From NCBI GenBank assembly GCA_043718505.1, contig JAYSVN010000023.1, positions 1 to 50,838 on the forward strand: a DNA stretch of 50,838 nt. Direction: 5' to 3'. Shown here in pieces: positions 19,166-34,173 of this stretch. Below the pieces are notes generated by a model. That model was not told where the DNA came from and did not search any database. It was given only the letters and a program-made list of their open reading frames with translations. Source of the stretch: Minisyncoccota bacterium. GTDB taxonomy: Bacteria; Patescibacteriota; Minisyncoccia; Phycocordibacterales; UBA9973. The position numbers were made by a program, and so were the translations under genes. Within the stretch, counting starts at the first letter, position 1; the number at the start of each line of letters is the position of its first letter.

Positions 19166-20494
19166 TTATTGATTAGAAGTTGTCTCAGGCCGCAGGTCCA
19201 AACTCCACAGCGAACCATCCTTTTTATTTAAGAAAACCAGAAATGTATTTAACGGATCAACTGTAAGATTCGTCGCATCTATTGAAGCACTTACATCTGA
19301 AGGATTGGCGATAACAACTGAAGAAAAAGTAGCCGTATCTATTTTATAAATCTGATCAGTAAAGCTCACAATTCCCTGGTACCAGGCGTCGGGATATTCG
19401 GCATTCGGCATATATGAAGGCACAGCACAGTAGAGAATAGTATTAGACTGCCACAGGCATTTTTCCGGCAATGTTGTTGCGCCAGGAAGTTGGAAGACGC
19501 CTTTTGAGCCCAAATTGTACAAACTCGTTGTTGTTGAACCGTTTCCTGCTCTTGATAAAAGAACTTGTTTGCCGTCGGGACTCATGAGCGTCGTTAAACC
19601 CAGGATACCGCCAAAGATTTTTTTCATGACCTTGCTTGATGTATCGATAGAGTAATAGTAACCGGGAACTTTGGCTGACGGTTTGGTTGTAAGCGTTACA
19701 AATTTCGCAGTCGGCCACTCAGTTGTCCAGTCTGAAAAAGCCAGAGAGAAAAGCTGATTCTTTTTTGTACCGTCAGGAAGAGAAATTGTACCGGCTGAAC
19801 CATTCTCCCCTTTTGCAACACTAAATATTTTTTCACGGTCCGGAGAAAGAGCAATTGCGGTAATATCTTCCGGTAAATATGTGCCCCGAAGACTTGTATC
19901 CGGCGAACCGTCTTTTTTGGCAATAAGCGGGATATTACCGGCGAATGTTTGAATCGCATTACTCGTGTCAGCATAACGAAGCACGGCCGTTGTTCCGGAT
20001 TTGCCGGTAAAAAATGACTCAACAATTTTTGGAATAGTAGTATTAGTTATTTTACTAATATCAATTTTATCTAAATAGGTTTCGTTGGTGTGACCAGTGG
20101 AACTTTCACTATAGCGAAGCATGGTCGCCGGTTCCATTTCTATTGGTACAGGTTTGCCATCTTTATCTTTTTTGTTTGGATCCTGTCCGGCCTTTGGTCG
20201 TGTGACATCAAAAGCGACAGCGCCTGAAATCGGTCCTTTGGCAACCATAACAAGCTTTGGTGGTTTACTTGGCTCAGGTATTTCGTCAGGCAGCACCTCG
20301 TCGTCGTTCTCATTGTCCGTTGTTCCATTTTGAGTATTATTGCCGCTATCATTAAATGGAAAAAGGTCCTGAAGAGAAAAACCACCACCTGTGTCAGTCG
20401 GCGTTTTTTTTGACGAAAAAAGCAGAAAATATGCCATAATCCCGGCGCCAAGGAGGAGAACAACCAATATGATGATGAAAATTTTTTTAAGCAT
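19166..20494 (-). CDS. Membrane-anchored protein, 442 aa, with an acidic/Pro linker and a TolB-like (PD40-type) beta-propeller region. It is the last gene of the T4SS-like train.
   Basis: The N-terminal TM segment is IFIIILVVLLLGAGIMAYFLLF. SPDREKIF and SPDGKQVLL repeats are present. The start lies 1 nt after the upstream stop. Confidence 0.6.
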   Translation of the reverse strand: MLKKIFIIILVVLLLGAGIMAYFLLFSSKKTPTDTGGGFSLQDLFPFNDSGNNTQNGTTDNENDDEVLPDEIPEPSKPPKLVMVAKGPISGAVAFDVTRPKAGQDPNKKDKDGKPVPIEMEPATMLRYSESSTGHTNETYLDKIDISKITNTTIPKIVESFFTGKSGTTAVLRYADTSNAIQTFAGNIPLIAKKDGSPDTSLRGTYLPEDITAIALSPDREKIFSVAKGENGSAGTISLPDGTKKNQLFSLAFSDWTTEWPTAKFVTLTTKPSAKVPGYYYSIDTSSKVMKKIFGGILGLTTLMSPDGKQVLLSRAGNGSTTTSLYNLGSKGVFQLPGATTLPEKCLWQSNTILYCAVPSYMPNAEYPDAWYQGIVSFTDQIYKIDTATFSSVVIANPSDVSASIDATNLTVDPLNTFLVFLNKKDGSLWSLDLRPETTSNQ

Positions 20495-20495
20495 G

Positions 20496-21797
20496 TTATT
20501 GAATGACCACTTTTGTTCCTGTCTTCATATATTTTGCCAGAACAATCAGATCATCATTATACATTCGAACACAACCGTTTGTGACAGCCAAACTATTCGA
20601 GGCCCGGCCGTGGAAACCAATTCCTCTGTCCGGCGTTGTACCAATATTTATAAATGCGGCACCCATATTGTATTTTCCACTGCGATCAAATATGGAATTG
20701 GTTTGATTTATTGAAAGTCGCTGATCAGTATTAATATATGTTGTACCTTTTGGTGTTTTACCGTCTCCACTTGTTGCTTGTGTAGCTTCAGCAATTCCAT
20801 TTTTACCAAGACCTACTGATACTGTTGCTGAGTCAGTCAGAGTACCGTTACTAATTTTAAAAGTAGCTTTTTTGGATGTTGTATCAACAACTATTTCCTG
20901 AAGTGTATAACCAGAACCAAGTTTTTGTCCGATCTGGGCGACTCCCGCGCTCGGGGCTGGGGTAAGAAAACTACCATGCATAGTGTAGCCGGCATTAGGA
21001 GCAGTTTGCTCTTCTGTTTGACCAAACAGTGTTTCATCAGGAGTAAATTGAATATTTACTTTATCTACTCCAAAGGTAAAATTCAGTAATTTGGGATTTA
21101 CTGTATTTAAAATCGCATAAGAGCCAAGAGCAATAATTAATCCGTACACAGCATTCTTAATTCTTGTTCTACCCTCTTCTTTGCCGCCAAGAGCATCAGT
21201 CGTCATATATTGAACACCGCCGAAGAAAATCATAATCACGGCCAGTACTCCGGCCAGACCGATCAGAATTTTATACATCATGCCGAAGTAATCATTGAGG
21301 TCTTTGTCGCGAATAACTGAAACTCCGCCGAGCGGTGCAAGAAGACAATAGCCGTCACGGCCGGCGGAACAAGTTGGTGTCGGGGTGGTACTTCCAACTC
21401 CAACAAAGTTAGCTTGAGTAGTAAAAGTAATTGCACCTGGAGTGTAAACGGTAGTAGGGTTGGCAGCGTCTACAATTTGGAAAGTATACGTTGTATTTGG
21501 CTGAAGGTTAGGAATAGTGTGAACAAAAGAACTATTCATAGGGGCAGTAAACGGTCCTTCAAATTGGTGAGGATACATACTAATTTCTCCGCCTTCCCAA
21601 TATTCAATTTTAACCTGCTTGTCAGTCATAAAATTACTGGTTGTACCAGTAATATCAGTCGAAGTTGGAGACGTTTGACTAATGTCCGAAGCACTAACTG
21701 TTATTGTCGGTAGAAGAAGTTGTGCCTGAGCCGTCGCAGAAAATAAAACACCCATTACTAAACATGAAATTATTATTTTTTTGAATGTCTTTTTCAT
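20496..21797 (-). CDS. Fusion protein, 433 aa: signal peptide, Fn3/Ig-like domain, T4SS (VirB2/TrbC-type) pilin module with 2 TM helices, and a C-terminal L,D-transpeptidase (YkuD) catalytic domain
   Basis: The pilin-like core is LLAPLGGVSVI...YKILIGLAGVLAVIMIFFGGVQYMTTDALGGKEEGRTRIKNAVYGLIIALGSYAILNTVNP. The YkuD motif is GFHGRASNSLAVTNGCVRM, giving His...Cys. Confidence 0.65.
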   Translation of the reverse strand: MKKTFKKIIISCLVMGVLFSATAQAQLLLPTITVSASDISQTSPTSTDITGTTSNFMTDKQVKIEYWEGGEISMYPHQFEGPFTAPMNSSFVHTIPNLQPNTTYTFQIVDAANPTTVYTPGAITFTTQANFVGVGSTTPTPTCSAGRDGYCLLAPLGGVSVIRDKDLNDYFGMMYKILIGLAGVLAVIMIFFGGVQYMTTDALGGKEEGRTRIKNAVYGLIIALGSYAILNTVNPKLLNFTFGVDKVNIQFTPDETLFGQTEEQTAPNAGYTMHGSFLTPAPSAGVAQIGQKLGSGYTLQEIVVDTTSKKATFKISNGTLTDSATVSVGLGKNGIAEATQATSGDGKTPKGTTYINTDQRLSINQTNSIFDRSGKYNMGAAFINIGTTPDRGIGFHGRASNSLAVTNGCVRMYNDDLIVLAKYMKTGTKVVIQ

Positions 21798-21798
21798 A

Positions 21799-22827
21799 TT
21801 ATTTTCCCAGCGTCACACTGACTGTCTGCTTAACCTCCTGAAAAAGCGTGATGATATTGGTAATATCGAGCGAAATAGTAGCCAGGCCGGCCTGGTTGTT
21901 ACCGCGAATAGTGAGCTCATTTGGTTTTTCCGGCGGCGGGACATTGGTGCCGTTAATTTTCCATTTATATTCCATATTTTTTCCTGTCACACTACTTTTG
22001 TTTTTGGAAAAGTAAAACGGCTCAGCCCTAATAGTCATTTCTCCACTTGGAAGACTAAAGCCGGTGTTGAGTAATTTATTTAATTTAAGACCGAGCGCCG
22101 GATTATTTTCATAAAACATAATCTGAGGTTTTACATAATTGAGATTGAGCGTACCAACACTACCACTTCCCGACTGACTTGAAACGTTAACCGAAACAAT
22201 GTCGCTTTGGTCGAGGTACGAATTTTTGACGATGTATGAATATTTACCGTAGCCGGAATTGGTCTGGTCAACGGTATATTTTTTCTTCCAGCTGTAGACT
22301 TTATTACCAGGAATAATTGAACCATTACTCTCAATAGGCAGAGCAACAACGTTTACTTTTGATTCCTGAGAAGCCATGGCCTTACCTTTATAAAAAGGAG
22401 AAACGTAGGAATCGGGCGCTTCCCAAAGGAGATCAACCTGAGAAGGCTGAATAGTAATTTTTTTATCAATTCTTGAACCCTCAGCGACAATAATGACAAT
22501 ATTTACTTCTGTTTTTGAACCAATATCGCCGGTTGTAAATGAAAATGTTGTCTTCCCTGTTCCAGAAATAGAATCTTTGCCGTTAATATTCCAGCTAATA
22601 CTGGCTTTATTAATGTTGGTAGAATAACTCGAAAGAGTAATTCTGACATTTTGATTTGGACCAGGAACCTCAGGTGAAATTTCCACATCAATATCATTAT
22701 CGCGAATTGCACCCGGATTTGTGAGAAAAGAAGCATCAAATTGGGCATGAGCAAAAATCGCTTTTCCGGCGAAAAAAACCAGGATAAAACTCAGAAAAAC
22801 AAAGCTAATATTTTTTACTATGCGCAT
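21799..22827 (-). CDS. Secreted protein, 342 aa, with about three Ig-like beta-sandwich repeats
   Basis: It has a signal peptide. The pattern ISWNINGKD / YSWKKKY / YKWKINGTN recurs. Confidence 0.6.
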   Translation of the reverse strand: MRIVKNISFVFLSFILVFFAGKAIFAHAQFDASFLTNPGAIRDNDIDVEISPEVPGPNQNVRITLSSYSTNINKASISWNINGKDSISGTGKTTFSFTTGDIGSKTEVNIVIIVAEGSRIDKKITIQPSQVDLLWEAPDSYVSPFYKGKAMASQESKVNVVALPIESNGSIIPGNKVYSWKKKYTVDQTNSGYGKYSYIVKNSYLDQSDIVSVNVSSQSGSGSVGTLNLNYVKPQIMFYENNPALGLKLNKLLNTGFSLPSGEMTIRAEPFYFSKNKSSVTGKNMEYKWKINGTNVPPPEKPNELTIRGNNQAGLATISLDITNIITLFQEVKQTVSVTLGK

Positions 22828-22834
22828 TAAAAGT

Positions 22835-22843
22835 ATTATAGCA
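22835..22843 (-). promoter_or_regulatory. Internal extended -10 promoter (TGcTATAAT), 7 nt upstream of ATG 22827
   Basis: The reverse complement reads tgctataat actttta ATG. It lies in the 56-nt gap after virB4. Confidence 0.6.
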
Positions 22844-22883
22844 GCAAAGCAGAGTAGAAACAGGCATCTCCTGAGGAAAGATT

Positions 22884-24728
22884 TTAACCAATCTTCGGTG
22901 CAGGACCGCCTTTTTCTGCTTCCTCGAGGTCGTCTTTGGCCTTTTTAATAGCCAAAACCTGCGATGGATCGGATGTAATAATCTGATCTTCAGTATATGA
23001 AGCAATGATTTTAATAGCCACGTGCTTAAGGCCGGCAAAAAAGATGCCTTCCCCGACATTTGACTCAAGCAAGAGGTATTTTTCCTCATCTGTCAGATTA
23101 AAAGTCTTTTGGAGGAGGTCAATTGAGCTCGGCGACTGTTTAAGGAGAAGTTGAAGCGAAGAGTTAGTCACGATAGGCGCGCCATACGGAGAACGCATAA
23201 AGTCAGCAACATCTTGAGTAATTGTACAGAGACCGAGATAGTATTTGCGGCAACGCTTGGCAATAGAGTAAAGGAAACTAGCCGTATCCTCTGATTTCAT
23301 CATCCACCAGGCCTCGTCAACAACAAGAAGGCGCTTCTTAATATCACGACGCACGGCATTCCAAATATAGTGAGTGACAATATACATAGCGACCGGCTTC
23401 AGGTCATCTTCCATATCGCGAACTGAAAAAACAATAAATTTTTTATTAATATCAATGTTCGTCGGCTGGTTAATAAAGTTTGCCCATGAACCTCGGGTAA
23501 ATTTTGTCAGACGCTGAATAATTGATTCACTACCCTCCATTCCGGAAAGCACCATTTCAAAGTCAGAGAGAAGCGGCGGCTCAATTGAAGCAAAATCAGA
23601 ATCAGGTGTAATATCTTTGATTGCATAGGTTTCAGTGATGGCTCGATCAATAACCGCGTCTTCTTCCGGCGTAAGCCCCCCAAGCATGATACGGAAAAGT
23701 CCGACAAGGTTAATAGTATTACTGCGCAAAACATCCGCCCCGGTTTCATCTTCGCGCGGAACCGGCAGATCAAATGGATTGATATGGTGTTCGGAAGAAA
23801 GTGAAATGTTGAAGAAGCGACCACCGACAGCTTCAGCCAAATATAAATATTCATGTTCCGGATCGATTACAATAACTTCCGTATCGAACATGAGCGTACG
23901 CAAAATTTCTAATTTTGTTGTATACGACTTACCGGAACCTGACTTGGCAAAAATAATTGAATTATAGTTTTCCAGAGAGAAACGATCGAAAATAACAAGT
24001 GAAGAGTTGTGACGATTAACGCCGTAGAGAATTCCTTTATTTGACGTCAGATCGAAGGAAACAAAAGGAAAAATCGAAGACAGGGGTTCAGAATTAAGCT
24101 TTTGGTGAACATTAAGAAGGTCATTTCCTATAGGTAAAACGCTCTTAAAACCGTCTTCCTGCATAAAGAGTGCCGGTTTAAAATAGACGAGGCGTGATTC
24201 AAGGATAGATTTAATTTCGTTTTCAGTTTTGAAAAGTTCATTTTCATTATCGGCATAAATAGTGAGGTAGAGGCCTATGTCAAAAATCTTTTCCTGAGCT
24301 TGTTGAAGATTATCACGCAAAGATTCAAGGTCTCGATAAGCAGTATCAAGCACCGGATCACGCACAAGGCCTTTGGCTTCACGGGAATTAATCTGACTTT
24401 GGACTTCAGCGACTTTTTTCTGGAATGTGCGCAGAATTTTAGTTGTTTCGATCGGATGAATAAAAATTGAAACATCAAAAATTTTATCCAGGTTAATAAC
24501 CGGTGAAAACCAATTATCAGTGAGAAAGCGCGGATATGAAATAACAAAATAAGTACGGGCAATTTTTCCACCGAGGCTGATGGACTTAGGATCAACCTTA
24601 AGCGCAGGTGGCGCAATCATGTCCTGAAATTCCAAAGTTGCGGCCTGGAAAATTTCCTGTGGTAACGTTGGCAGCGCAGTGGCGCTTTCAGTTTTTTTCT
24701 TATTTAAAATGTTATCAAATATGCCCAT
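22884..24728 (-). CDS. virB4: VirB4/TrbE/TraE-family T4SS ATPase, comprising the middle and ATPase domains
   Basis: Walker A IFAKSGSGKSYTTK, Walker B LLVVDEAWWMM, and CTITQDVADF. The N-terminal part IARTYFVISYPRFLTDNWFSPVINL resembles the VirB4 pre-ATPase region. Confidence 0.88.
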   Translation of the reverse strand: MGIFDNILNKKKTESATALPTLPQEIFQAATLEFQDMIAPPALKVDPKSISLGGKIARTYFVISYPRFLTDNWFSPVINLDKIFDVSIFIHPIETTKILRTFQKKVAEVQSQINSREAKGLVRDPVLDTAYRDLESLRDNLQQAQEKIFDIGLYLTIYADNENELFKTENEIKSILESRLVYFKPALFMQEDGFKSVLPIGNDLLNVHQKLNSEPLSSIFPFVSFDLTSNKGILYGVNRHNSSLVIFDRFSLENYNSIIFAKSGSGKSYTTKLEILRTLMFDTEVIVIDPEHEYLYLAEAVGGRFFNISLSSEHHINPFDLPVPREDETGADVLRSNTINLVGLFRIMLGGLTPEEDAVIDRAITETYAIKDITPDSDFASIEPPLLSDFEMVLSGMEGSESIIQRLTKFTRGSWANFINQPTNIDINKKFIVFSVRDMEDDLKPVAMYIVTHYIWNAVRRDIKKRLLVVDEAWWMMKSEDTASFLYSIAKRCRKYYLGLCTITQDVADFMRSPYGAPIVTNSSLQLLLKQSPSSIDLLQKTFNLTDEEKYLLLESNVGEGIFFAGLKHVAIKIIASYTEDQIITSDPSQVLAIKKAKDDLEEAEKGGPAPKIG

Positions 24729-24739
24729 ATGTTTTTGTT

Positions 24740-25378
24740 TTACGATTGAGCGGCTGATGTCCCCTCTCCCGGATTAAAGACTCTATAGAAAAGTTCAACA
24801 ATTTCCTCGCTGCCAAGTTGTGCAGTGCGGACGCCGACGCGGGAAAGTCCCTGGGAAATAACAGCGATACGCTGTTCAAGTTGGCTACGGGCTTCTTCAA
24901 ACTGTGTCGTGTCAATTTCACCAACTGTGTCCTTCTTTTTAACAAAGCTACTAAAAAGGCCGCTTAGTCCCTTGCCTCCTCCAAGCGTAGTTGGCGTAAA
25001 TGGCACAACAACGAAGAAGCTTTTTTCCATAATATTAGTCTGGTCTGAAAAAGCCCTGATAAATTCAATGTATTCTTTGGTCTGAATTTTAAGAAGAGGT
25101 TCGTTTTGATCTATTTCCCGGGCCTCAAGTGTGGCAAGGTATGGGCGCATATCACGGCGGCGGGAATGGATGACAATTTGAGTTGAAAATTCAAGTGTAT
25201 TAAGAAAGTTTTGGAATTGAAGGAGAATGGCGACTTGTTCATCGGCGGATTTGAGCGACAGATTAACAGATGTAGCCAGCAGAATTGCCCTAAGGCCGCC
25301 ATCTTTAAGAACCATGATGCCGTCGCGCACTTCACTAATTGAAATAAAGTTTTGAGTCGGTTTGCCGACAGGTGCCAT
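24740..25378 (-). CDS. Protein resembling the extreme N-terminal domain of Gram-positive VirB4 ATPases. It is possibly the detached 5' part of virB4.
   Basis: FISISEVRDGIMVLKDGGLRAILLATSVNLSLKSADEQVAILLQFQNFLNTLEFSTQIVIHSR matches the remembered VirB4 N-terminal pattern. It ends 11 nt before the virB4 ATG. I place the start at ATG 25378 rather than the track TTG at 25387. Confidence 0.5.
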   Translation of the reverse strand: MAPVGKPTQNFISISEVRDGIMVLKDGGLRAILLATSVNLSLKSADEQVAILLQFQNFLNTLEFSTQIVIHSRRRDMRPYLATLEAREIDQNEPLLKIQTKEYIEFIRAFSDQTNIMEKSFFVVVPFTPTTLGGGKGLSGLFSSFVKKKDTVGEIDTTQFEEARSQLEQRIAVISQGLSRVGVRTAQLGSEEIVELFYRVFNPGEGTSAAQS

Positions 25379-25425
25379 ACTAGACAATAATACCGCAGAT
25401 TGGCTTATATGCCACTACTTTTTCC

Positions 25426-25830
25426 CTATTTTTTCTCGGCGTCGAGGACATCGAGGCTCCAGGAAATGTCTTTAAGCTTCGATTCTGACAATTTTGGCAT
25501 AAAAGCTTCTGCTTGCGGGGTTTTCATGGTTTTCATATTACCTTTTGGCGGCGGTCCTTTATGCCAGACATAGAGTTTTGATCCTACTTGATAATGAAGC
25601 CAGGCCTGCATGACAATAATAAACGGACGGTTGTTGATTTTATAGAAAGCTAACATAAGAGCAAGCACTGCTGCCCCTATACCGAGAGGGACACCAATAA
25701 GCAAAGGCAATGTTTTGAATGATAAGTAAGCAATAAAAGCCCCGCCAAGCATGTAGATGAATTGCTTAAAGGTAAATGGCCCGAAAATCTTATCTTCAAT
25801 ATCAATGAATTGCGGTGTTCGAAACTGCAT
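25426..25830 (-). CDS. PrgI-family / VirB3-like small membrane protein. The start is moved to ATG 25830.
   Basis: MQFRTPQFIDIEDKIFGPFTFKQFIYMLGG... is followed by two TM helices. TACAAT (25837-25842) lies exactly 6 nt upstream of ATG 25830. Confidence 0.65.
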   Translation of the reverse strand: MQFRTPQFIDIEDKIFGPFTFKQFIYMLGGAFIAYLSFKTLPLLIGVPLGIGAAVLALMLAFYKINNRPFIIVMQAWLHYQVGSKLYVWHKGPPPKGNMKTMKTPQAEAFMPKLSESKLKDISWSLDVLDAEKK

Positions 25831-25836
25831 ATCTAT

Positions 25837-25842
25837 ATTGTA
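25837..25842 (-). promoter_or_regulatory. -10 hexamer TACAAT, 6 nt upstream of the PrgI-like ATG
   Basis: The reverse complement reads tacaat atagat ATG. Confidence 0.5.
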
Positions 25843-25862
25843 TACCAAAAGCACTGTTTCTT

Positions 25863-27431: not shown

Positions 27432-30233
27432 TTATTTTTCTTCCTTTTCTTCGTCTTTCTTTTCATTTTTCTTTTCTTCCTTTTTCTCATCTCCTCCCCC
27501 TTCTTCCTTTTCCAGATCCTTAAGAATATCCTTAATCTTATCAAGCGGCTTTTCTGATTTTATTTTCTCATTTGTTCTAATTGCGTTAGCTGCTGCTACA
27601 GCATTTTTCTCAGTATACTTATTGCCGACGCCAGCCTCTACTTGATCCGCGTAACTATTTCTTCTTGTCTTGTTTATTTCCTTTATGTCGTTGATATCCC
27701 TATTCTTTTCTGCCGCCTTTAGATTTTCCTTTTCTTTTTCTGTTATCTTCTTTTTAAGTTCAAGTTCTTTTTCAAGGGCCTCAATCTTATTTTTCTCGAT
27801 TAACATTGCGATATCATCAGGCTTATATTTGCCACTCTCTTCCATCTCCTTAACTTTCTTCTGCTGCTCTGCTAATTTCTTACTAGACTCCTTCTGTTCT
27901 TCTGTGGCTTCCTTTGTTTTTTCTTCCTGAGCCTTAACTTTTACCTCTTCATCAGCAAACTTCTTTCCCCACGCCTTAGCCTGTGGAGAATCTTTATCAA
28001 CCTCCAATAGTTTTGCTTTCTCAAGCTCGGCTTTCTTTGTTCTATCCTGCATTCCCTTTGCTCCACCTTTTGTTGTGAAGTAATCTTTTTCATATCCAGC
28101 AATATTTCCGGCAAAATTAGCTGCCTTAGCAAGGCCCTTATTCTTGAAGTCCATTCCGGTGTTCTTAGACGCCCAGTTACCAGCAACGGTATTGCGTGCA
28201 TCGAACGTAGCATTTTTCATTGAATCAGCCAGTTGAACTCGTCTCATTGCTCCCTTATCGCCCTTTGCTGCTGCTTCACGGACTTTTTCACTTGCAATAC
28301 TACCTGCCATTCTGCCAGCCAAATTTCTTCCTGCAATCGCTACACCACCGGTTGCAAGCCCAACCGCGGCTCCGCCGACAAAACTGCCAACCTTACCCAT
28401 TGCAGCTCCAAAGTCCCCTGACATTGACTGAGCAGTTTCTTTGGTTTTAAGAAGAAGAATAGAAATAACGAGGAGTGGCAAAAGAACGCTCATAAACATA
28501 CCGGTTGTCGTTGTTGATGAACCAAGTTGACCCAAGAAATTTGATTTAAGAAATGACAAAATGAGGAAAATCATAAGCATGGCAATTGCCGGCATAACAG
28601 CCATTTCCAAAAGACTCTTTATCCACGAATTAAAGTTCATGTATTTGGCCGCACCCTTACCTGCAATACTAGGCTGCACAGGAAGAGCAAGAGAAAGAAA
28701 TGCCAGCGGTGCAAATATCATAGCCAGCCATATGCCGGCCACACGGGCAATAAAGAGCCAGGCCAGAGAAAAGAAAACAAAGGCAGCGACAAGATTAACG
28801 ACAGCACCAACAAGAGAAAATAGGGCAAAGAAACTAGCATACTGTTCATCGGTCAGACCAACGTTCGTTGTTCCACCACTTGTTGAAATTGATGTTTGCG
28901 GTGTCAGGCCTTTGAAAAGTTTGAGTGGGTTAAATGTAGCCGCAAAACCGTATGAAATACTCTTATAGTTCGAAGAACTACTGGTAATTTGCTGCTGGTT
29001 CTGGGTATTTGTCACTGAAATTTGATTATAGAAAAAGCGCGAGGCGATATTACCGAAATCGACAATAACTTTGGTCATAAAAAGACTAAAGTTAATCGTC
29101 AGTGCCACCAAAATAACCATACCGATAAACCGGTCATTCTTTTTGCCGATAATAGTCGTTATGGCAATAAAAACTAAAATAAAGATAAAGAAAATATTAG
29201 CCAGATCACGCATCACTCTCCAGCCATCAGTCACAAAACTGTGTCCGGAAACCGGGTACGAGTTACTGTCTATTGAATAACCAATTCCCCAGTCCATAAT
29301 TTCACCAGCGAGAGCCATAACAAAAGAAGTCGGCTTGAAAACAATAAAGTAAACAATCTGTCCGACGCAACCCATAACTTTTGATGAAGAGAAAATTCCA
29401 CATTCAGGAAGCTCAGCATCACCATCAGTAACCGTATTACTACTGGTTTGTTGAACACCTTGCTGAATTAGGCTTGCACTTCCAGCAGGAAGGGTTCGAA
29501 AAGCAAAAAGTTTTGAACTGCCGACATCCGGAGACCCGTCTTCTTCGATTCTAATGCGAGCAACATATTCTGTATCAGGTGTTAGGCTGCTTGTCCTGAG
29601 GCTTTGGTTTATAACATTTGAGCGCATTGGGAGATTTCCTGCGGCATCCTTTGTTAGAAATATATAAATAAGAGCAATCCTTTGATTGATAGGGAAACAG
29701 GAATCTGAAACAAAACCATTAATACTACCTGGCGTACTTCCACTATCATCAAGACAAGCAGCCGATAAATCACTCTTTTTCGCATACTCCAACCAGGCTC
29801 CATTACCTGAAACTGGTTTTAGTTCTGATGGATTATACAAGGCTCGCCAAGAACCCAAAATACTATTTGCTTCGGAAGTTGTGGGAACGTTAATTTTACC
29901 GACGTTCAATGCATTTGCTGCTCCTACAAAACCATCAGTATATTCGAATTTTTTTAGAATCCTATTGTCTGCATCATCGCCCTTAGGTTCAGGGGCAGTA
30001 TCAATCGGTTTAACTGTTATATTTAATTGTACTTCAGTGTCTGATACGCCACCCTGTCCTAATCGCAGATTAGTTGATTCTATAAAATGACCAGTGGCAT
30101 TACTCGAGGAGTACCACTCATTCATACTATTACCGATGAGTTGTGCCTCTACTTTATGTGCAACTAAAAACCCCGCCAGTAAAAAAACGGTCAATAAAAT
30201 GCCTTTTCGTATCGCATTGCCCTTCCGGTTCAT
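27432..30233 (-). CDS. Large polytopic membrane protein, 933 aa. It is the VirB6/TrbL-like channel candidate, with a signal peptide, an extracytoplasmic domain of about 300 aa and a Lys/Glu-rich coiled-coil tail of about 250 aa.
   Basis: At least 6 hydrophobic helices lie between about residues 290 and 640. The tail reads KKFADEEVKVKAQEEKTKEATEEQKESSKKLAEQQKKVKEMEE...EKKEEKKNEKKDEEKEEK. Confidence 0.5.
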   Translation of the reverse strand: MNRKGNAIRKGILLTVFLLAGFLVAHKVEAQLIGNSMNEWYSSSNATGHFIESTNLRLGQGGVSDTEVQLNITVKPIDTAPEPKGDDADNRILKKFEYTDGFVGAANALNVGKINVPTTSEANSILGSWRALYNPSELKPVSGNGAWLEYAKKSDLSAACLDDSGSTPGSINGFVSDSCFPINQRIALIYIFLTKDAAGNLPMRSNVINQSLRTSSLTPDTEYVARIRIEEDGSPDVGSSKLFAFRTLPAGSASLIQQGVQQTSSNTVTDGDAELPECGIFSSSKVMGCVGQIVYFIVFKPTSFVMALAGEIMDWGIGYSIDSNSYPVSGHSFVTDGWRVMRDLANIFFIFILVFIAITTIIGKKNDRFIGMVILVALTINFSLFMTKVIVDFGNIASRFFYNQISVTNTQNQQQITSSSSNYKSISYGFAATFNPLKLFKGLTPQTSISTSGGTTNVGLTDEQYASFFALFSLVGAVVNLVAAFVFFSLAWLFIARVAGIWLAMIFAPLAFLSLALPVQPSIAGKGAAKYMNFNSWIKSLLEMAVMPAIAMLMIFLILSFLKSNFLGQLGSSTTTTGMFMSVLLPLLVISILLLKTKETAQSMSGDFGAAMGKVGSFVGGAAVGLATGGVAIAGRNLAGRMAGSIASEKVREAAAKGDKGAMRRVQLADSMKNATFDARNTVAGNWASKNTGMDFKNKGLAKAANFAGNIAGYEKDYFTTKGGAKGMQDRTKKAELEKAKLLEVDKDSPQAKAWGKKFADEEVKVKAQEEKTKEATEEQKESSKKLAEQQKKVKEMEESGKYKPDDIAMLIEKNKIEALEKELELKKKITEKEKENLKAAEKNRDINDIKEINKTRRNSYADQVEAGVGNKYTEKNAVAAANAIRTNEKIKSEKPLDKIKDILKDLEKEEGGGDEKKEEKKNEKKDEEKEEK

Positions 30234-30301: not shown

Positions 30302-32884
30302 CTAGTAAATAGTAAGGCTATTTTCCAATGTTGAATCGAGGTTGAATTTTACCGTGGGAGAGCCATTTCCTCCCTGTAGTGGAGAAGCACCCCACATATA
30401 GTCCCAGACAAAAATCCAGTCTGGGTGGTTAGCATTTGTATGGTCTCTATCACCGCTTATTTCTACATTAGGTAAGAAAGTCGCATTAGTCTGTGTTCTG
30501 AAAGGAGCGGGGCTAGGCCATCCATGGTCAAGATAGTCTTGGTTGCTTGCATGTAAACCGGCTGGGTACGCACGTCTGGAATATTGTGGGAAAGGAATAG
30601 CAGCGAGGTTGGCATTGCATTCACGGACCAAGCCGCTGTCTTTGTCAGCCATAGCGGTTGTTGTATCTTTGGCGACAGAAATTTCCGCTACAGCTCGGTC
30701 AATATCATCTCCTGTTTTGAGATTTGACACCAAGCTTGAGAAAATTCTGAGTTGTGTCGCGTAGTATCGGTCATAAATAATTTGTTGAGCGGCGGTAGGT
30801 GGCGTCACAGTGTTATTTATATTGTTATCTTGTTGTGAAGCAAGAACATCGCGGTAAATTTTCTCGATTCGCGGAATGATGGTCATAAATACATCAAGGT
30901 CTTCATTAATAGACTCCGCAGCACTATTAAAGACTGAGATTTTCCTGTATTCCTGCTTAAGCAATATATTCAAGATCTGAAGCTCATCGGGCGGGTTGGT
31001 ACCATTGTAGATTTTTTTTATTTTTTCCTTGTAGCCATCATTTGTGCCGTCGACTGAACGAATCATTTGCATGACGCCATTATTAGCGTTCTGAGGTATT
31101 TTCAAGTCATGAGCTGTGTCGTGGTCTGTATCACCATCTGGTCTTGCACGGAAGCCAGTAAAGCTTTTCACAAATTCAAAACCAATTTCTCGACGATCAT
31201 CATTTAGCTGTTCGGCTCCAAAGCTAGATATAAGACCACTTGGATCGAAACTCCCGATAGTATTCAATAATGATTCATTTTCTTTAGCTGCGTCGTACTT
31301 AGCATTCATACCAGCCAGTTTTTCCTGGGCTATCGAAACAGCTGTTTGTTCCCAGTCAGGCCTAGGTCCTGGCACGCAGTAATCAAGTTCATGTAACCAT
31401 CTCTTTGTTTCAGCGAGTGCCTCACTCTCTTCCTCAATTAGTGCTTTGTATTCTTTGAGTACAACCAAGATACCTTGTCTATCAAATCCACCTTTTATAC
31501 ATTCAGGATCGTTTGCATATAGAGAAGGATTTCCAGAATTGATATTACATGCAGGATCAGGATCTACTGCACCCGGCCCGTTAGGTGCTATTGCTGTAAT
31601 AAGGTCAAAATTCTTATTTTGGTTGTACCATTGATCCGCTGCTGCTGGGGTATTACTGCTTGAGCCGACAGCTATTGTATTTGTCGAACTATTGCTGCCG
31701 TAGCCGCCAAGAGTTGATACGTTCGATCCAGCCTGGTTATTGTCGCTACCAGATAGTGAAGCCACACCCTTTGAGAAGAATTGCTTAAGCAGGGCATCAA
31801 AAACAGCAGAAATGCTTTCGTTGATAGTATCAGCAAGTTCAAGTTGGCGTTGGGGTATACCAAGAGAAATATTCATCTGCTGGGAAATCGCAGTTCCAGG
31901 AGTTTGTGTCTGGAATCGTTTGCAGGTGTGCTTGCGAAGCCATTCTACGGCTGCGTCTTCAGCAGGACTAACATCGACTGGTCCGACTGTGTCTGGGTCT
32001 GATGTATTGTTGGCGCTGCCTATTATCGCCATAGCCTCAGCTCTTGTAAACGTTGTGTCGTCACTTTCCGGTTTATAATCATTTGGATCGATACATTTCT
32101 TGAGCGATAGAAATCCGCCTGATTCTTGTAACTCCTTGGTAACGTTATCAATCGGGCTTGCTTCTCTTTTGGCGCTATTTACAGTTGTACCAATTTTGTT
32201 CACACTTTTGATGTATGAATCAAACGGATTCGCATCCGTGATTTGTGTTACAGCCAAGTATCCGTCCCACCCCCCGCCATAAAGAAAGTCATCGGTAAAA
32301 TTATTAAAACGCTCCTCATATGGCATATTCGGATTATTATCATTATTGAGCAAATTACCAGATGAGACTGAAGCATTATAATCAAGCTGGCCTTGAATTG
32401 ATTTGACGATATTTTGAGCAGTCAAGCGGCCAAACGGAAAACGCTTTGGGTCAAAGGCGATTTTGGCGGTAAAGTCTGACACTTGCTCATTGGCAATACT
32501 GGTAAAAAATGATCCTCTGTCTTGGACAAATGTAGGTGAGCCTTGGAATCCGGAGTTAATCCATTCAAGTGAAGACCTGGTAATTTTGGCGAGAACTGCT
32601 TTCGCAGCAGTGTATGCAATAGCATTGAGACATTCAGCAACATTTTGCAGTTTTGCGTCTGCGACCGGTACGTCCTTTGCAGTTACTGTGTTGAGTAGGC
32701 CAGTCAGTGCGCTTGCGCCTTTATTGAGAATGCCGCTACAACCAAGTGCTGTCGATATAATACCGCCGCCATTGTCACTCATAAAATTCTGAGCCTGGGC
32801 TGTTTTTACAAATGTAAATACTGGCGATAGCGCAAGAGAAAGACCAGCGATAGCAAGGAGAATTTTTTTCCCGAAAAGTAACAT
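30302..32884 (-). CDS. Large secreted protein, 860 aa, of unknown function
   Basis: It has a signal peptide ending ...FVKTAQAQ. No catalytic motif was recognised. TATAAT lies 8 nt upstream of the ATG. Confidence 0.6.
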   Translation of the reverse strand: MLLFGKKILLAIAGLSLALSPVFTFVKTAQAQNFMSDNGGGIISTALGCSGILNKGASALTGLLNTVTAKDVPVADAKLQNVAECLNAIAYTAAKAVLAKITRSSLEWINSGFQGSPTFVQDRGSFFTSIANEQVSDFTAKIAFDPKRFPFGRLTAQNIVKSIQGQLDYNASVSSGNLLNNDNNPNMPYEERFNNFTDDFLYGGGWDGYLAVTQITDANPFDSYIKSVNKIGTTVNSAKREASPIDNVTKELQESGGFLSLKKCIDPNDYKPESDDTTFTRAEAMAIIGSANNTSDPDTVGPVDVSPAEDAAVEWLRKHTCKRFQTQTPGTAISQQMNISLGIPQRQLELADTINESISAVFDALLKQFFSKGVASLSGSDNNQAGSNVSTLGGYGSNSSTNTIAVGSSSNTPAAADQWYNQNKNFDLITAIAPNGPGAVDPDPACNINSGNPSLYANDPECIKGGFDRQGILVVLKEYKALIEEESEALAETKRWLHELDYCVPGPRPDWEQTAVSIAQEKLAGMNAKYDAAKENESLLNTIGSFDPSGLISSFGAEQLNDDRREIGFEFVKSFTGFRARPDGDTDHDTAHDLKIPQNANNGVMQMIRSVDGTNDGYKEKIKKIYNGTNPPDELQILNILLKQEYRKISVFNSAAESINEDLDVFMTIIPRIEKIYRDVLASQQDNNINNTVTPPTAAQQIIYDRYYATQLRIFSSLVSNLKTGDDIDRAVAEISVAKDTTTAMADKDSGLVRECNANLAAIPFPQYSRRAYPAGLHASNQDYLDHGWPSPAPFRTQTNATFLPNVEISGDRDHTNANHPDWIFVWDYMWGASPLQGGNGSPTVKFNLDSTLENSLTIY

Positions 32885-32885
32885 G

Positions 32886-33797
32886 TTATCGTATTATACC
32901 ATTAGCTTCAAAATAGCCCGCAAGTGAAGCGACGGCTGCCTCAAGTTTCGGTTCATGTTTTTCAAACTGGGCAACAGCAATAAGACCGACAATAGAATTA
33001 TCGTTTATTTCAGTCATATTTTTGAAAATAAGACTCATATTGTAGCTTTCGTTCAGAAAAGCAATATGACTTGATCGAGCGCCTGGTGGCACTGCCATGG
33101 CAGCAAGTTCTTTGGCAAGCGTGCTGTAGGTTTTCGCAAACATTTGAAAATCGGCTGTTTTTGCCGGCTCCTCGCCAAAAGATAAAGCAATAACTTCTAG
33201 TTCTGTTCCCATGCCGCCCTTTTCCCCTGTGGTAATTGCGGCTTTTATTTTTGAATAGTACACACTCTTGGCTTCTTTGGTATCAGCCGATGTTTTAATG
33301 TCAGCAATCACATAGTGGTTTGGTAAATCAACGTTTTGGCCAATGTCACCACTGAATTTTTGAGCAAGGTTTTCTATATTAAATGTATTGAGTGTACCAG
33401 CCTGGTGAAGAGCAATAATGGTTGTTAGAAATTCCCGGGCAATTTTCTCAGTGTCGTTAAGATTTTCAACTGAAGCAGTACCTTCTCCTCCAGTAGAGTT
33501 ACTAACCTCTGCTCGTTTCTTGGCAATATACTGCTTGTCCGGTTCATTGAATGTTGAAGGATTATTTGAATCTGTCCCCCAAAGCGCTTCTTCCCAGTCA
33601 GGCACACCATCGAAGTCCAAATCTCGCTCAATAATTTCCTTAGGGGTGGTGGTTTCAGTAACAATAAGCGGGTTTTTAATTGATGAATAGGTTTTTGTAT
33701 ACAGGAAAATAAAATAACCTAGGACAATAACCGCAAGACTAACACCTGCGATTTTGGTAAATTTTTTACTTGGTAAATAACGACGCAAAGAATCCAT
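32886..33797 (-). CDS. Membrane-anchored protein, 303 aa, with a thrombospondin-type-3-like Asp motif and an alpha-helical ectodomain
   Basis: The TM segment is IAGVSLAVIVLGYFIFLY. The Asp motif is DLDFDGVPDWEEALWGTDSNNP. Confidence 0.55.
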   Translation of the reverse strand: MDSLRRYLPSKKFTKIAGVSLAVIVLGYFIFLYTKTYSSIKNPLIVTETTTPKEIIERDLDFDGVPDWEEALWGTDSNNPSTFNEPDKQYIAKKRAEVSNSTGGEGTASVENLNDTEKIAREFLTTIIALHQAGTLNTFNIENLAQKFSGDIGQNVDLPNHYVIADIKTSADTKEAKSVYYSKIKAAITTGEKGGMGTELEVIALSFGEEPAKTADFQMFAKTYSTLAKELAAMAVPPGARSSHIAFLNESYNMSLIFKNMTEINDNSIVGLIAVAQFEKHEPKLEAAVASLAGYFEANGIIR

Positions 33798-33798
33798 A

Positions 33799-34161
33799 TT
33801 ATTTCGATTTTCCGAATAATGTTACATTGTAGACGCTTCCAGGGACTCTGTATGGACCCATTTGGTAGTAGCAATTAGAAATGTTCGGCACAGTGTCATA
33901 AAGCCCGAGTACCCAATCCTTGGCTTTTGGTTGTGAGGTGCCGGCTTTATAGAAATAGTAACTTGCAGGTGCTTTACCAACAGATCTTTGGGTTACAGGC
34001 CCAGTTCCACCAGTGCATATAAAGTTTCCTTGAGGGCCAGTTATAAGAATTTGTCCACCAAATGGATTGGTAGTTACTGCGGCCAAAACTTTTTGTGTCT
34101 GTGTTGCGATACCTAAAGAAATAAACGACAGGCAGATGATAGAAAACACTGCATATTTCAT
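33799..34161 (-). CDS. Small secreted protein, 120 aa, the first gene of the T4SS-like train. The start is moved to the second ATG.
   Basis: The signal peptide is MKYAVFSIICLSFISLGIATQ. TATAAT (34168-34173) lies exactly 6 nt upstream of ATG 34161. Confidence 0.55.
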   Translation of the reverse strand: MKYAVFSIICLSFISLGIATQTQKVLAAVTTNPFGGQILITGPQGNFICTGGTGPVTQRSVGKAPASYYFYKAGTSQPKAKDWVLGLYDTVPNISNCYYQMGPYRVPGSVYNVTLFGKSK

Positions 34162-34167
34162 TGCCAT

Positions 34168-34173
34168 ATTATA
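34168..34173 (-). promoter_or_regulatory. Consensus TATAAT -10, placed between the rsmA stop and the first T4SS-train gene
   Basis: The reverse complement reads TAG g t TATAAT atggca ATG. Confidence 0.6.

What the first reader, a model, noticed from the sequence alone, without database searches (positions are those of the whole stretch)
19166..34173. Compact 12-gene type IV secretion-like locus with no DNA-processing or coupling components
**What the sequence shows**
- Twelve co-directional genes are packed with gaps of 1-68 nt behind their own TATAAT promoter (34168-34173).
- Internal -10 elements lie before the 860-aa gene, the PrgI-like gene and the 342-aa gene.

**Recognisable T4SS parts**
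- A PrgI/VirB3-like protein.
- A VirB4 ATPase, in two pieces.
- A VirB6-like polytopic protein.
- A VirB2-type pilin module.

**Why it is interesting**
- The remaining seven proteins are all secreted or membrane-anchored and match no family I recognise. They are a 120-aa secreted protein, a 303-aa anchored protein, an 860-aa secreted protein, two paralogous Pro-rich proteins, a 342-aa Ig-repeat protein and a 442-aa beta-propeller protein.
- I found no VirD4-type coupling ATPase, relaxase, VirB11, lytic transglycosylase, integrase or oriT-like feature anywhere in the 50 kb.
- The locus is embedded in core genes: rsmA and pcrA lie upstream, and the origin block downstream.
- This argues for a chromosomal, non-conjugative envelope machine (adhesion, effector or nucleic-acid exchange with a host cell) rather than a mobile-element T4SS.
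- The accessory set is the candidate undescribed system.
Basis: partly seen in the sequence, partly recalled or inferred. Interest (0 to 1): 0.85.

Follow-up and report, generated by a model that had tools for sequence, protein, structure and literature searches.

The report
Paceibacteria chromosomal type IV secretion locus
This is the origin-proximal, relaxase-free type IV secretion gene cluster that ultra-small Patescibacteria carry on their chromosome, a system already described in 2023-2025, here in its Paceibacteria form with conserved but still unexplained envelope proteins.

Summary
The 12 co-directional genes are real. The VirB4, PrgI/VirB3 and VirB2-pilin calls hold in profile searches. 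VirB6 is only weakly supported.

The "two-piece VirB4" is a conserved two-gene arrangement, a TrsD-like N-terminal domain plus VirB4, and not a broken gene.

At least 80 Paceibacteria species have the same genes in the same order, in the block dksA-comM-M23/LysM-pcrA-rsmA-[locus]-jag-yidC-rnpA-dnaA. The contig has no relaxase, VirD4, integrase, tRNA or att-like repeats. It is therefore a vertically inherited chromosomal machine and not an ICE.

This reading was already published for Patescibacteria (Wang 2023; Quinonero-Coronel 2025).

- The 433-aa "pilin" also carries a YkuD L,D-transpeptidase-fold domain.
- The two Pro-rich paralogues have no signal peptide or TM segment.
- Absence of VirD4 cannot be judged from 50 kb.

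Possibly new details:
- The pilin gene is a fixed slot whose C-terminal peptidoglycan-active domain is swapped between species, even at 93% VirB4 identity.
- The 860-aa orphan belongs to a Pfam-less family of about 5,600 sequence clusters.

Verdict: a new member of a known kind, of moderate interest.

The parts
34168..34173 (-). TATAAT -10 box. It lies 6 nt before the second ATG (34161) of g1 and is the likely promoter of a leaderless g1-g2 transcript.
33799..34167 (-). g1: small secreted protein, 122 aa from ATG 34167 or 120 aa from ATG 34161. It is a patchy accessory: a similar small secreted ORF with a PFGG motif occupies the same slot in 5 of 27 relatives.
32886..33797 (-). g2: 303-aa protein with an N-terminal TM anchor, an acidic Ca-binding TSP3-type repeat region and an orphan C-terminal domain.
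   Evidence: TSP3_bac is found in 10 of 32 sequences scanned (window protein plus 31 orthologues); the window protein itself had no hit. No VirB8-like signal.
32893..32898 (-). TATAAT -10 box 8 nt before the g3 ATG, inside the end of g2.
30302..32884 (-). g3: 860-aa secreted, mostly alpha-helical orphan. It belongs to a very large Pfam-less family.
27432..30233 (-). g4: 933-aa extended VirB6-like candidate. It has a signal peptide, an FN3-like ectodomain, 6 TM helices (about aa 344-633) and a charged cytoplasmic tail of about 300 aa.
26691..27428 (-). g5: 245-aa Pro-rich paralogue of g6 with no signal peptide or TM segment. It is a lineage-specific duplicate.
25863..26660 (-). g6: 265-aa protein with a conserved 108-aa N-terminal domain, a Pro-rich linker and a near-invariant C-terminal DPY(RE) motif. 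It has no signal peptide or TM segment.
25837..25842 (-). TACAAT -10 box 6 nt before ATG 25830 of g7.
25426..25854 (-). g7: PrgI/VirB3-like membrane protein. The likely true start is ATG 25830, giving 134 aa.
24740..25387 (-). g8: TrsD/TraC-like protein, the VirB4 N-terminal domain encoded as its own gene.
22884..24728 (-). g9: VirB4 ATPase of the CD1110/MPF_FATA-like type, with Walker A GSGKS and Walker B VVDEAW.
22835..22840 (-). TATAAT -10 box 7 nt before the g10 ATG, conserved in 51 of 71 relatives.
21799..22827 (-). g10: 342-aa protein with an N-terminal hydrophobic segment (signal peptide or anchor). It gives sub-threshold Ig/PKD-like hits, and orthologues are found in 76 of 77 relatives.
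20496..21797 (-). g11: signal peptide, FN3-like ectodomain, VirB2-type pilin hairpin (aa about 146-238) and a YkuD L,D-transpeptidase-fold domain (aa 301-432).
19166..20494 (-). g12: 442-aa TM-anchored protein, probably a PD40/TolB-like beta-propeller. Some homologues carry an N-terminal PG_binding_1 domain.

Best explanation
[quoted passage not shown] This system descends from monoderm (MPF_FATA-like) conjugation machinery but has been uncoupled from DNA processing.

**Shown**
- The motor is a VirB4 ATPase (g9). Its N-terminal domain is encoded separately as a TrsD-like protein (g8).
- A PrgI/VirB3 membrane partner (g7) is present.
- A VirB2-type pilin hairpin (g11) is present.
- g11 has a signal peptide and a single pilin hairpin, so its C-terminal YkuD-fold peptidoglycan-active domain is predicted to lie outside the membrane.
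- The whole set is inherited vertically at one chromosomal site.

**Inferred**
- g4 is an extended VirB6-type channel subunit that forms the membrane translocon with g7, g8 and g9.
- g11 fills the VirB1 (wall-remodelling) role and may also build a short pilus or stalk.
- The anchored or secreted proteins g2, g3, g10 and g12 (helical, Ig-like, and a TolB-like propeller that is sometimes peptidoglycan-binding) form the wall-spanning or host-contact part.
- g6 and g5 act on the cytoplasmic side.
- The machine most likely mediates contact-dependent exchange of macromolecules with the host cell on which these epibionts live. Protein export versus import of host nucleic acid or nutrients is unresolved. 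It is unlikely to be conjugation.
- It is probably transcribed as several leaderless units: g1-g2, g3-g6, g7-g9 and g10-g12.
For: **T4SS components**
- Profile hits for PrgI, VirB4, pilin and YkuD are above or at curated cutoffs.
- g8 aligns to aa 35-193 and g9 to aa 205-754 of a full-length clostridial plasmid VirB4.
- The split is kept in all 78 relatives that have enough upstream flank. The frame offsets vary between relatives (33/23/23), so it is not a frameshift.

**Conservation**
- Flank-corrected conservation in 80 species:

| Gene | Relatives with an orthologue |
|---|---|
| g8 | 78/78 |
| g7 | 73/73 |
| g4 | 58/58 |
| g3 | 44/52 |
| g2 | 34/51 |
| g10 | 76/77 |
| g11 | 68/71 |
| g12 | 67/68 |

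- Order and strand are the same.
- The same block is seen in Kaiserbacteria and other, more divergent Patescibacteria contigs.
- VirB4 median identity is 78%, against 42-52% for the neighbouring RsmA, PcrA, YidC and Jag.

**VirB6**
- Distant g4 homologues give weak TrbL, TrbL_3 and TrbL_4 hits.
- The g4 AlphaFold model has pLDDT around 90 in the TM region. Its best membrane-protein Foldseek probabilities are R388 TrwI/VirB6 chains (prob 0.93, TM 0.40).

**Wall-remodelling slot**
- g11 orthologues keep the pilin core in 71 of 71 cases.
- They carry NlpC/P60, VanY/M15, YkuD, SLT, Amidase_5 or 3D domains.

**Not mobile**
- The contig has no relaxase, T4CP, integrase, tRNA or att repeat.

**Literature**
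- The same system class is essential for epibiotic growth in a Saccharibacterium and is widespread in Patescibacteria.
Against: - VirB6 status is not significant: Foldseek E is 0.075, there is no direct Pfam or NCBIfam hit, and tblastn against plasmids finds nothing.
- No VirB8-like component was found.
- No substrate, effector or direction of transport is shown by anything here.
- T4CP or relaxase genes elsewhere in the genome cannot be excluded from one 50.8-kb contig.
- Roles assigned to g2, g3, g5, g6, g10 and g12 rest only on location, predicted topology and conserved synteny.
- Promoter assignments are sequence-pattern inferences without transcript data.
Confidence: 0.8

Rival explanations
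1. The same machine works as an uptake device, comparable to ComB or Ced. It would import host DNA or RNA (or nucleotides) and would not export effectors.
For: - There is no relaxase or T4CP on the contig.
- g9 has weak NCBIfam similarity to CedB and CedD.
- There is conserved linkage to pcrA/uvrD and comM.
- A 2026 preprint proposes host-RNA feeding and possible T4SS pili in a cultivated Patescibacterium.
- In the ABY1 class the T4SS is linked to comF, recG and radA.
Against: - In S. epibionticum a comEC knockout abolished competence but not viability, while the T4SS was essential.
- pcrA, rsmA and comM are housekeeping genes whose linkage may reflect only the origin-proximal location.
- The CedB and CedD hits are far below cutoff.
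Confidence: 0.2
2. It is a degraded or cryptic integrative conjugative element whose relaxase, T4CP and integrase lie just off the contig.
For: - The VirB4 is of the CD1110 conjugative type at 32-35% identity to monoderm plasmid VirB4s.
- The PrgI-VirB4-wall enzyme order resembles that of a clostridial conjugative plasmid.
Against: - The identical chromosomal site and gene order are found in 80 species and in more distant lineages, between rsmA and jag/yidC next to dnaA.
- There is no integrase, tRNA or flanking repeats.
- GC content of the locus equals that of the window, 0.413 vs 0.411.
- VirB4 is more conserved than the neighbouring core genes.
Confidence: 0.02
3. The seven orphan genes form an independent, undescribed envelope system that merely sits beside a minimal T4SS.
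For: None of them has detectable homology to the accessory proteins of a CD1110-type conjugative cluster, to Pfam or to PDB.
Against: - They interleave with the T4SS genes: g2-g3-[VirB6-like]-g5/g6-[PrgI][TrsD][VirB4]-g10-[pilin]-g12.
- They share 1-68-nt spacing and apparent transcription units with them.
- They co-occur with virB4 in nearly every relative.
Confidence: 0.05
4. The locus builds only an adhesive pilus or stalk for attachment to the host, with no substrate transport.
For: - It has a VirB2-type pilin and FN3- or Ig-like ectodomains.
- Literature notes possible T4SS pili at the host interface.
Against: - There is a single pilin gene in the window. Its hairpin is flanked by about 145-aa and 195-aa ectodomains, which is unusual for a filament subunit.
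- A type IV pilus ATPase for adhesion exists separately at 4075-5769.
Confidence: 0.08

Closest known systems
Patescibacteria-clade chromosomal T4SS (Quinonero-Coronel et al. 2025, PMC12102498; S. epibionticum SEML1_0006-0019, Wang et al. 2023, PMC10633639)
   Same: - VirB4 plus TrsD plus PrgI/VirB3 plus a VirB6-like protein plus a VirB2-like pilin.
- No relaxase or T4CP beside virB4.
- Located next to dnaA, dnaN, rnpA and ksgA.
- Many unannotated neighbouring genes.
   Different: - This is the Paceibacteria arrangement, with one pilin gene and not a 2-11-gene pilin array.
- The pilin is fused to a peptidoglycan-active domain.
- The conserved partners g2, g3, g10 and g12 are not named in those papers as far as I could read.
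Monoderm MPF_FATA conjugative T4SS (pGO1/pIP501 TrsD-TrsE; CD1110-family clusters such as C. perfringens pSXP-169_2)
   Same: - VirB4 is of the CD1110 type at 32% identity.
- PrgI lies just upstream of it.
- A wall-degrading enzyme lies downstream.
- There is a TrsD-like N-terminal-domain protein, as in pGO1.
   Different: - The plasmid cluster has MobC, a relaxase and a VirD4-like T4CP, and its VirB4 is a single 783-aa protein.
- This locus has none of those and is chromosomal and fixed.
- Gram-positive systems normally lack VirB2 pilins.
T4SS-related uptake systems without relaxase or T4CP (Helicobacter ComB; Sulfolobales Ced)
   Same: They use a VirB4-family ATPase and membrane components without DNA-processing genes.
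   Different: - Only weak sub-threshold similarity to CedB and CedD was found.
- No evidence was obtained here for the direction of transport.
Mycoplasma ICE T4SS (VirB4_plasma; Mbov_0395 pilin-like protein)
   Same: - It is a wall-less or monoderm-type T4SS with a small pilin-like membrane protein.
- g8, g9 and g11 give sub-threshold hits to these NCBIfam models.
   Different: - Those are mobile ICEs.
- The scores here are far below the curated cutoffs.

Membership tests
Patescibacteria-clade chromosomal T4SS | VirB4 ATPase of the monoderm (MPF_FATA/CD1110-like) type | tested here: met
   - P-loop_TraG scores 91.7 bits.
- NCBIfam conju_CD1110 scores 377.8 bits against a cutoff of 325.
- The nearest plasmid VirB4s are monoderm CD1110-family proteins at 32-35% identity.
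Patescibacteria-clade chromosomal T4SS | Separate TrsD-like gene (VirB4 N-terminal domain) next to virB4 | tested here: met
   - g8 matches CD1110 model positions 2-117 and TrsD.
- It aligns to aa 35-193 of a full-length VirB4.
- Orthologues carry Pfam TraC-like PF26593.
- The split is conserved in 78 of 78 relatives.
Patescibacteria-clade chromosomal T4SS | VirB3/PrgI membrane protein near virB4 | tested here: met
   Pfam PrgI scores 34.3 bits against a cutoff of 27. Orthologues are found in 73 of 73 relatives.
Patescibacteria-clade chromosomal T4SS | VirB6-like polytopic channel protein | tested here: inconclusive
   - There is no direct Pfam or NCBIfam hit.
- Distant homologues give sub-threshold TrbL, TrbL_3 and TrbL_4 hits.
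- Foldseek matches R388 TrwI/VirB6 with prob 0.93, TM 0.40 and E 0.075.
- The architecture has 6 TM helices.
Patescibacteria-clade chromosomal T4SS | VirB2-like pilin encoded near virB4 | tested here: met
   - T4SS_pilin scores 26.7 bits against a cutoff of 26.6 in the window.
- 56 of the 71 sequences scanned (window protein plus 70 positional orthologues) hit T4SS_pilin, and 4 hit TrbC/VirB2.
Patescibacteria-clade chromosomal T4SS | No relaxase or coupling protein beside virB4 | tested here: met
   - None is found among the 30 flanking ORFs of the contig scanned by Pfam or in the locus genes.
- None is found within +-10 kb in L081, L084, L085 or L086.
- Genome-wide absence is not testable.
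Patescibacteria-clade chromosomal T4SS | Chromosomal position near dnaA, dnaN, rnpA and ksgA | tested here: met
   rsmA abuts g1. jag, yidC, yidD, rnpA, dnaA and dnaN lie within 5.5 kb downstream.
Patescibacteria-clade chromosomal T4SS | VirB4 falls inside the monophyletic Patescibacteria clade | not tested
   No tree was built. As a proxy, the best 80 of 560 genome hits are all Patescibacteria MAGs at 74-93% identity.
Patescibacteria-clade chromosomal T4SS | Required for epibiotic growth | not testable with these tools
   This is known only for S. epibionticum.
Conjugative T4SS / ICE | Relaxase, T4CP and oriT | tested here: not met
   No relaxase or VirD4 family hit is found on the contig. 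oriT was not searched for.
Conjugative T4SS / ICE | Integrase, att repeats, tRNA target, and variable presence among relatives | tested here: not met
   - There is no integrase.
- There is no tRNA.
- Only chance-level repeats are found.
- The locus is fixed at the same site in 80 species.
YkuD L,D-transpeptidase fold (C-terminal domain of g11) | Pfam YkuD match above cutoff, with the conserved His and the G-C-x-R Cys motif | tested here: met
   The match is 61.4 bits against a cutoff of 23.4, over aa 301-432. The motif FHG...TNGCVRM is read directly from the translation. Enzyme activity is not tested.
VirB8-like (NTF2-like) bitopic component | Sequence or profile similarity of an anchored protein to VirB8, PrgL, TraM or TcpC | tested here: not met
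   The g2 profile finds only a Ca-binding repeat match in PDB and TSP3_bac in Pfam. The g10 profile finds only weak Ig-like hits. No structure models were made for g2 or g10.

The most novel reading that the evidence does not exclude
The three-gene unit g10-g11-g12 behind the conserved internal promoter, possibly together with the large g3 family, may be a host-wall-breaching module.
- It would consist of a VirB2-type pilin hairpin displaying an exchangeable peptidoglycan-active domain (YkuD, NlpC/P60, VanY/M15, SLT or amidase).
- The enzyme type would be matched to the cell-wall chemistry of the host, not of the epibiont itself, making this slot a host-range determinant.
- The machine might be used to pull host macromolecules in.
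Probability: 0.2. Interest if true: 0.75.

Novelty: new member of a known kind. Interest (0 to 1): 0.35.

Why it matters
**Why the system matters**
- Patescibacteria make up a large share of bacterial diversity and live attached to host cells.
- Their T4SS is the only T4SS shown to be essential for the bacterium that carries it. Its substrate and most of its parts are unknown.

**What this window adds**
- It gives no new system. It gives a clean Paceibacteria example and three testable leads.
- Lead 1: a defined set of ten co-inherited components, six without any annotated family. One of these families has about 5,600 sequence clusters.
- Lead 2: a fixed pilin slot with rapidly swapped peptidoglycan enzymes. 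This points to wall remodelling, of self or host, as a variable and selected step.
- Lead 3: an apparent leaderless-promoter layout that predicts the operon structure.

Tried and rejected
- **g3 structure.** The AlphaFold model has pLDDT 64.5. Foldseek against PDB gave only generic helix bundles, with the best E at 0.099. The profile search against PDB sequences gave nothing.
- **g4 by sequence.** The profile against PDB returned only coiled-coil noise from the charged tail. tblastn of the TM region against 72,556 plasmids found no match.
- **g2 as VirB8-like.** Rejected. Only a Ca-binding repeat match was found.
- **g10, g5/g6 and g12 profiles against PDB.** Nothing was significant. TolB was the top hit for g12 at E 0.14.
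- **g8 as a paralogue of the g9 N-terminus.** Rejected. They are complementary and not similar.
- **Frameshifted VirB4 pseudogene.** Rejected. There is a clean stop, an 11-nt spacer and then an ATG. The split is conserved with varying frame offsets.
- **ICE.** Rejected. There is no tRNA, repeat or integrase, and synteny is fixed.
- **My first view that the TATAAT boxes were chance.** I based this and withdrew it after the positional analysis.
- **Orphan profiles against a CD1110-type conjugative cluster.** No hits.
- **The second-largest C-terminal cassette of g11 orthologues (L002 type).** No PDB match. My reading of an H-x7-D...H-x-H metallopeptidase motif in it is from the sequence only.

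Full report
**1. What is there**

The window is a whole 50,838-bp contig (one search lists it as the longest contig for its own protein). Between 19166 and 34167 lie twelve minus-strand ORFs with gaps of 1-68 nt. I call them g1-g12.

| Gene | Coordinates | Length (aa) |
|---|---|---|
| g1 | 33799-34167 | 122 |
| g2 | 32886-33797 | 303 |
| g3 | 30302-32884 | 860 |
| g4 | 27432-30233 | 933 |
| g5 | 26691-27428 | 245 |
| g6 | 25863-26660 | 265 |
| g7 | 25426-25854 | 142 |
| g8 | 24740-25387 | 215 |
| g9 | 22884-24728 | 614 |
| g10 | 21799-22827 | 342 |
| g11 | 20496-21797 | 433 |
| g12 | 19166-20494 | 442 |

- Locus GC (0.413) equals window GC (0.411).
- Upstream, on the same strand, lie rsmA/ksgA (34176-35096), pcrA/uvrD (35138-37096) and a 1249-aa unknown. 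Further up are an M23+LysM peptidase, comM and a dksA/traR-type gene.
- Downstream lie an ART-PolyVal gene, jag/khpB, yidC, yidD, rnpA, dnaA, dnaN, a class A PBP, tyrS, ruvC, ruvB and a PilB-type ATPase.
- Pfam finds no VirD4, relaxase, VirB11 or integrase family among the 30 other ORFs scanned.
- There is no tRNA and no meaningful flanking repeat.

**2. The T4SS calls**

- **g7.** It matches Pfam PrgI above the gathering score (34.3 vs 27).
- **g9.** It matches P-loop_TraG (91.7 bits), AAA_10 and DUF87. It passes the curated cutoff of NCBIfam "VirB4-like conjugal transfer ATPase, CD1110 family" (377.8 vs 325; model positions 180-733 of 752).
- **g8.** It matches positions 2-117 of the same model, and TrsD below cutoff.
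- **g8 and g9 against a full-length VirB4.** Against the 783-aa VirB4 of a C. perfringens conjugative plasmid, g8 aligns to aa 35-193 (E 1e-7) and g9 to aa 205-754 (E 4e-85).
- **The split.** "VirB4 in two pieces" is therefore literally right, but it is not damage. The junction is stop, 11 nt, then ATG. The split is present in 78 of 78 relatives, with frame offsets of 33/23/23. Orthologues carry Pfam TraC-like PF26593. This is the TrsD+VirB4 pair described for Patescibacteria.
- **g11.** It hits T4SS_pilin at the threshold (26.7 vs 26.6) and an NCBIfam pilin-like model below cutoff. Of the 71 sequences scanned (window protein plus 70 positional orthologues), 56 hit T4SS_pilin and 4 hit TrbC/VirB2.
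- **g4.** It has no direct family hit. Its architecture is a signal peptide, a beta-rich ectodomain, six TM helices and a charged tail. Distant homologues at the same genomic position give weak TrbL, TrbL_3 and TrbL_4 hits. In the AlphaFold model (mean pLDDT 74.9, TM region around 90), the highest-probability membrane matches are TrwI/VirB6 chains of the R388 T4SS (prob 0.93, TM 0.40, E 0.075). The ectodomain matches FN3 domains. I treat VirB6 as likely but unproven.

**3. Relatives and synteny**

- A genome-collection scan with g9 found 560 relatives. The best 80, one per species, are all Paceibacterota, Nomurabacteria or Parcubacteria-type MAGs with 74-93% VirB4 identity.
- tblastn of all twelve proteins against these loci, corrected for available flank, gave the following. 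Order and strand are the same.

| Gene | Relatives with an orthologue |
|---|---|
| g8 | 78/78 |
| g7 | 73/73 |
| g4 | 58/58 |
| g3 | 44/52 |
| g2 | 34/51 |
| g6 | 49/68 |
| g10 | 76/77 |
| g11 | 68/71 |
| g12 | 67/68 |
| g1 | 4/49 |

- A positional look finds g1-like small secreted ORFs in 5 of 27 relatives.
- Most relatives have one g5/g6-family gene, so the pair here is a local duplication.
- More divergent Patescibacteria contigs show the whole block dksA-comM-M23/LysM-pcrA-rsmA-[g2][g3][g4][g6]-PrgI-TraC-like-VirB4-...-jag-yidC-rnpA-dnaA. These are a Kaiserbacteria genome and two others.
- This is a vertically inherited chromosomal locus and not an island.
- VirB4 (median 78% identity) is far more conserved than the neighbouring core genes: RsmA 47, PcrA 52, Jag 45, YidC 42. 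The envelope proteins (26-42%) are near or below YidC.

**4. The accessory proteins**

- **g3.**
  - The word-indexed search found 36 homologues, none with a Pfam domain.
  - The exhaustive profile search found 5,610 representatives of 50%-identity clusters at E<=1e-3, and 3,143 at 1e-30.
  - Its model is mostly alpha-helical, with a confident C-terminal half, and has no PDB counterpart.
  - Long family members add FN3, InlB-type or SASA domains, which fits a surface location.
- **g12.** It has at least 334 homologues. Some carry PD40 hits or an N-terminal PG_binding_1 domain. TolB is the top, non-significant, PDB hit.
- **g10.** It gives only weak Ig/PKD-type hits.
- **g2.** It has a TM anchor and TSP3-type Ca-binding repeats (10 of 32 sequences scanned; the window protein itself had no hit) and an orphan C-terminal domain. 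There is no VirB8 signal.
- **g5 and g6.** They share a 108-aa N-terminal domain (39% identity, E 4e-23). The family ends in a near-invariant DPY(RE) motif.
- **Comparison with a conjugative cluster.** None of the orphan profiles hits any protein of a CD1110-type conjugative cluster.

**5. The pilin-enzyme slot**

- With a signal peptide and a two-helix hairpin, both ectodomains should face outward.
- Across 71 orthologues the pilin core is always present. 59 have a C-terminal extension of 100 aa or more, and these extensions fall into at least ten unrelated sequence clusters.
- Pfam names many of them: NlpC/P60 (11), VanY (7), YkuD (5), SLT types, Amidase_5, M15_4 and 3D.
- In the relative with 93% identical VirB4, g11 is 60% identical up to "FTPDE" (aa 255). 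After that it is unrelated.
- The wall-enzyme role (VirB1-like) is therefore a fixed slot with a rapidly exchanged cassette.
- The 2025 survey does not mention this fusion, NlpC or YkuD. Two further literature searches did not find it. I cannot exclude that it is in supplementary tables.

**6. Promoters**

- Overall, TATAAT (37 vs 40+-5.5) and full sigma-70-like sites (38 vs 41.7+-6.1) are at chance level.
- Position is not at chance. 14 of 38 gene starts have a hexamer with at least 5 of 6 matches to TATAAT ending 5-9 nt before the start codon, eight of them at exactly 6 nt. About 0.8 would be expected. Only one gene has an SD-like 4-mer.

| Box | Position | Gene start served |
|---|---|---|
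| TATAAT | 34168-34173 | 6 nt before the second ATG of g1 (34161) |
| TATAAT | 32893-32898 | 8 nt before g3 |
| TACAAT | 25837-25842 | 6 nt before ATG 25830 of g7, so PrgI is probably 134 aa |
| TATAAT | 22835-22840 | 7 nt before g10 |

- The box before g10 is conserved in 51 of 71 relatives. The one before g7 is conserved in 25 of 63.
- I infer leaderless transcription units g1-g2, g3-g6, g7-g9 and g10-g12. Downstream genes appear coupled at TAAT-ATG-type junctions. No transcript data were available.

**7. Comparison with what is known**

- Wang et al. 2023 showed by Tn-seq that a T4SS (SEML1_0006-0019) in a Saccharibacterium is essential for epibiotic growth. It has pilins and no recognisable relaxase or coupling protein.
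- Quinonero-Coronel et al. 2025 surveyed Patescibacteria. They found:
  - a monophyletic VirB4 clade related to MPF_FATA;
  - TrsD, PrgI/VirB3, VirB6 and VirB2-like pilins near virB4;
  - almost no relaxases;
  - T4CP homologues mostly far from virB4;
  - a location near dnaA, dnaN, rnpA, ksgA and rpmH, especially in Paceibacteria.
- A 2025 review lists these systems as a new T4SS branch.
- The nearest plasmid VirB4s are monoderm CD1110-family proteins at 32-35% identity. Such a plasmid cluster carries MobC, a relaxase and VirD4 just upstream of PrgI-VirB4-SLT. This locus has none of these.

**8. Verdict**

- It is a Patescibacteria-type chromosomal T4SS in its Paceibacteria form: a new member of a known kind.
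- The identity of the system is well supported (about 0.9).
- The mechanism is inferred from published work on relatives and is not shown here. That mechanism is host-contact macromolecule exchange, with direction and substrate unknown.
- The accessory proteins are conserved parts of this system and not a separate one.
- The pilin-anchored swappable wall-enzyme slot, the size of the g3 family and the leaderless-promoter layout are the points worth carrying forward.

Noticed in passing
whole window; examples 4075, 7630, 14987 (dnaA), 17374 (yidC), 44079-46445: Contig-wide signature of leaderless mRNAs. 14 of 38 gene starts have a TATAAT-like hexamer ending 5-9 nt (mostly 6) before the start codon. 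Only 1 of 38 has an SD-like 4-mer.
   Followed up: partly
window 18574-19161 (+): A 195-aa ART-PolyVal ADP-ribosyltransferase-family gene (37.4 bits vs 31.2) is wedged between jag and the end of the T4SS locus.
- Its GC is 34% against 41% for the window.
- It is absent from all 80 related loci.
- Its only other matches are 22-27% identical phage ORFs.
- It is possibly a recently acquired toxin or effector.
   Followed up: partly
window 20496-21797 and orthologues in L002-L080: The C-terminal peptidoglycan-enzyme cassette of the pilin protein differs between genomes whose VirB4 is 93% identical. The breakpoint is sharp, just after the pilin hairpin.
   Followed up: yes
window 22884-24728 vs flanking core genes: VirB4 (median 78% identity across 78 species) is much more conserved than RsmA, PcrA, YidC and Jag (42-52%) in the same loci.
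   Followed up: partly
window 37096-40845 (-): A 1249-aa K/E/A/G-rich ORF with no Pfam or NCBIfam hit overlaps the pcrA start by 1 nt. It is not present at this position in the Kaiserbacteria, L085 or L086 contexts.
   Followed up: no
window 41030-42391 (+), 42425-43993 (-), 44079-44432 (-): An M23+LysM peptidase, comM and a dksA/traR zinc-finger gene keep the same order upstream of pcrA-rsmA-T4SS in divergent Patescibacteria contigs (Kaiserbacteria, L085, L086). The M23/LysM protein may be what the 2025 survey counted as a VirB1-like neighbour.
   Followed up: partly
window 25863-26660 and orthologues (alignment A7): The g6 family ends in a near-invariant D-P-Y(-R-E) motif after a Pro-rich linker. 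g5 lacks it. No function is known.
   Followed up: no
L081 14917-15315, L082 14941-15315: In a Kaiserbacteria genome a bAvd/23S_rRNA_IVP-family gene is inserted between PrgI and the TrsD-like gene of the same T4SS locus. bAvd proteins are known as accessory proteins of diversity-generating retroelements (from memory, not checked here).
   Followed up: no
window 4075-5769 (+) and 3-3944 (-): A PilB-type T2SS/T4P ATPase lies about 13 kb beyond the origin block, next to large surface-type ORFs with FN3-like and acidic disulfide repeats.
   Followed up: no
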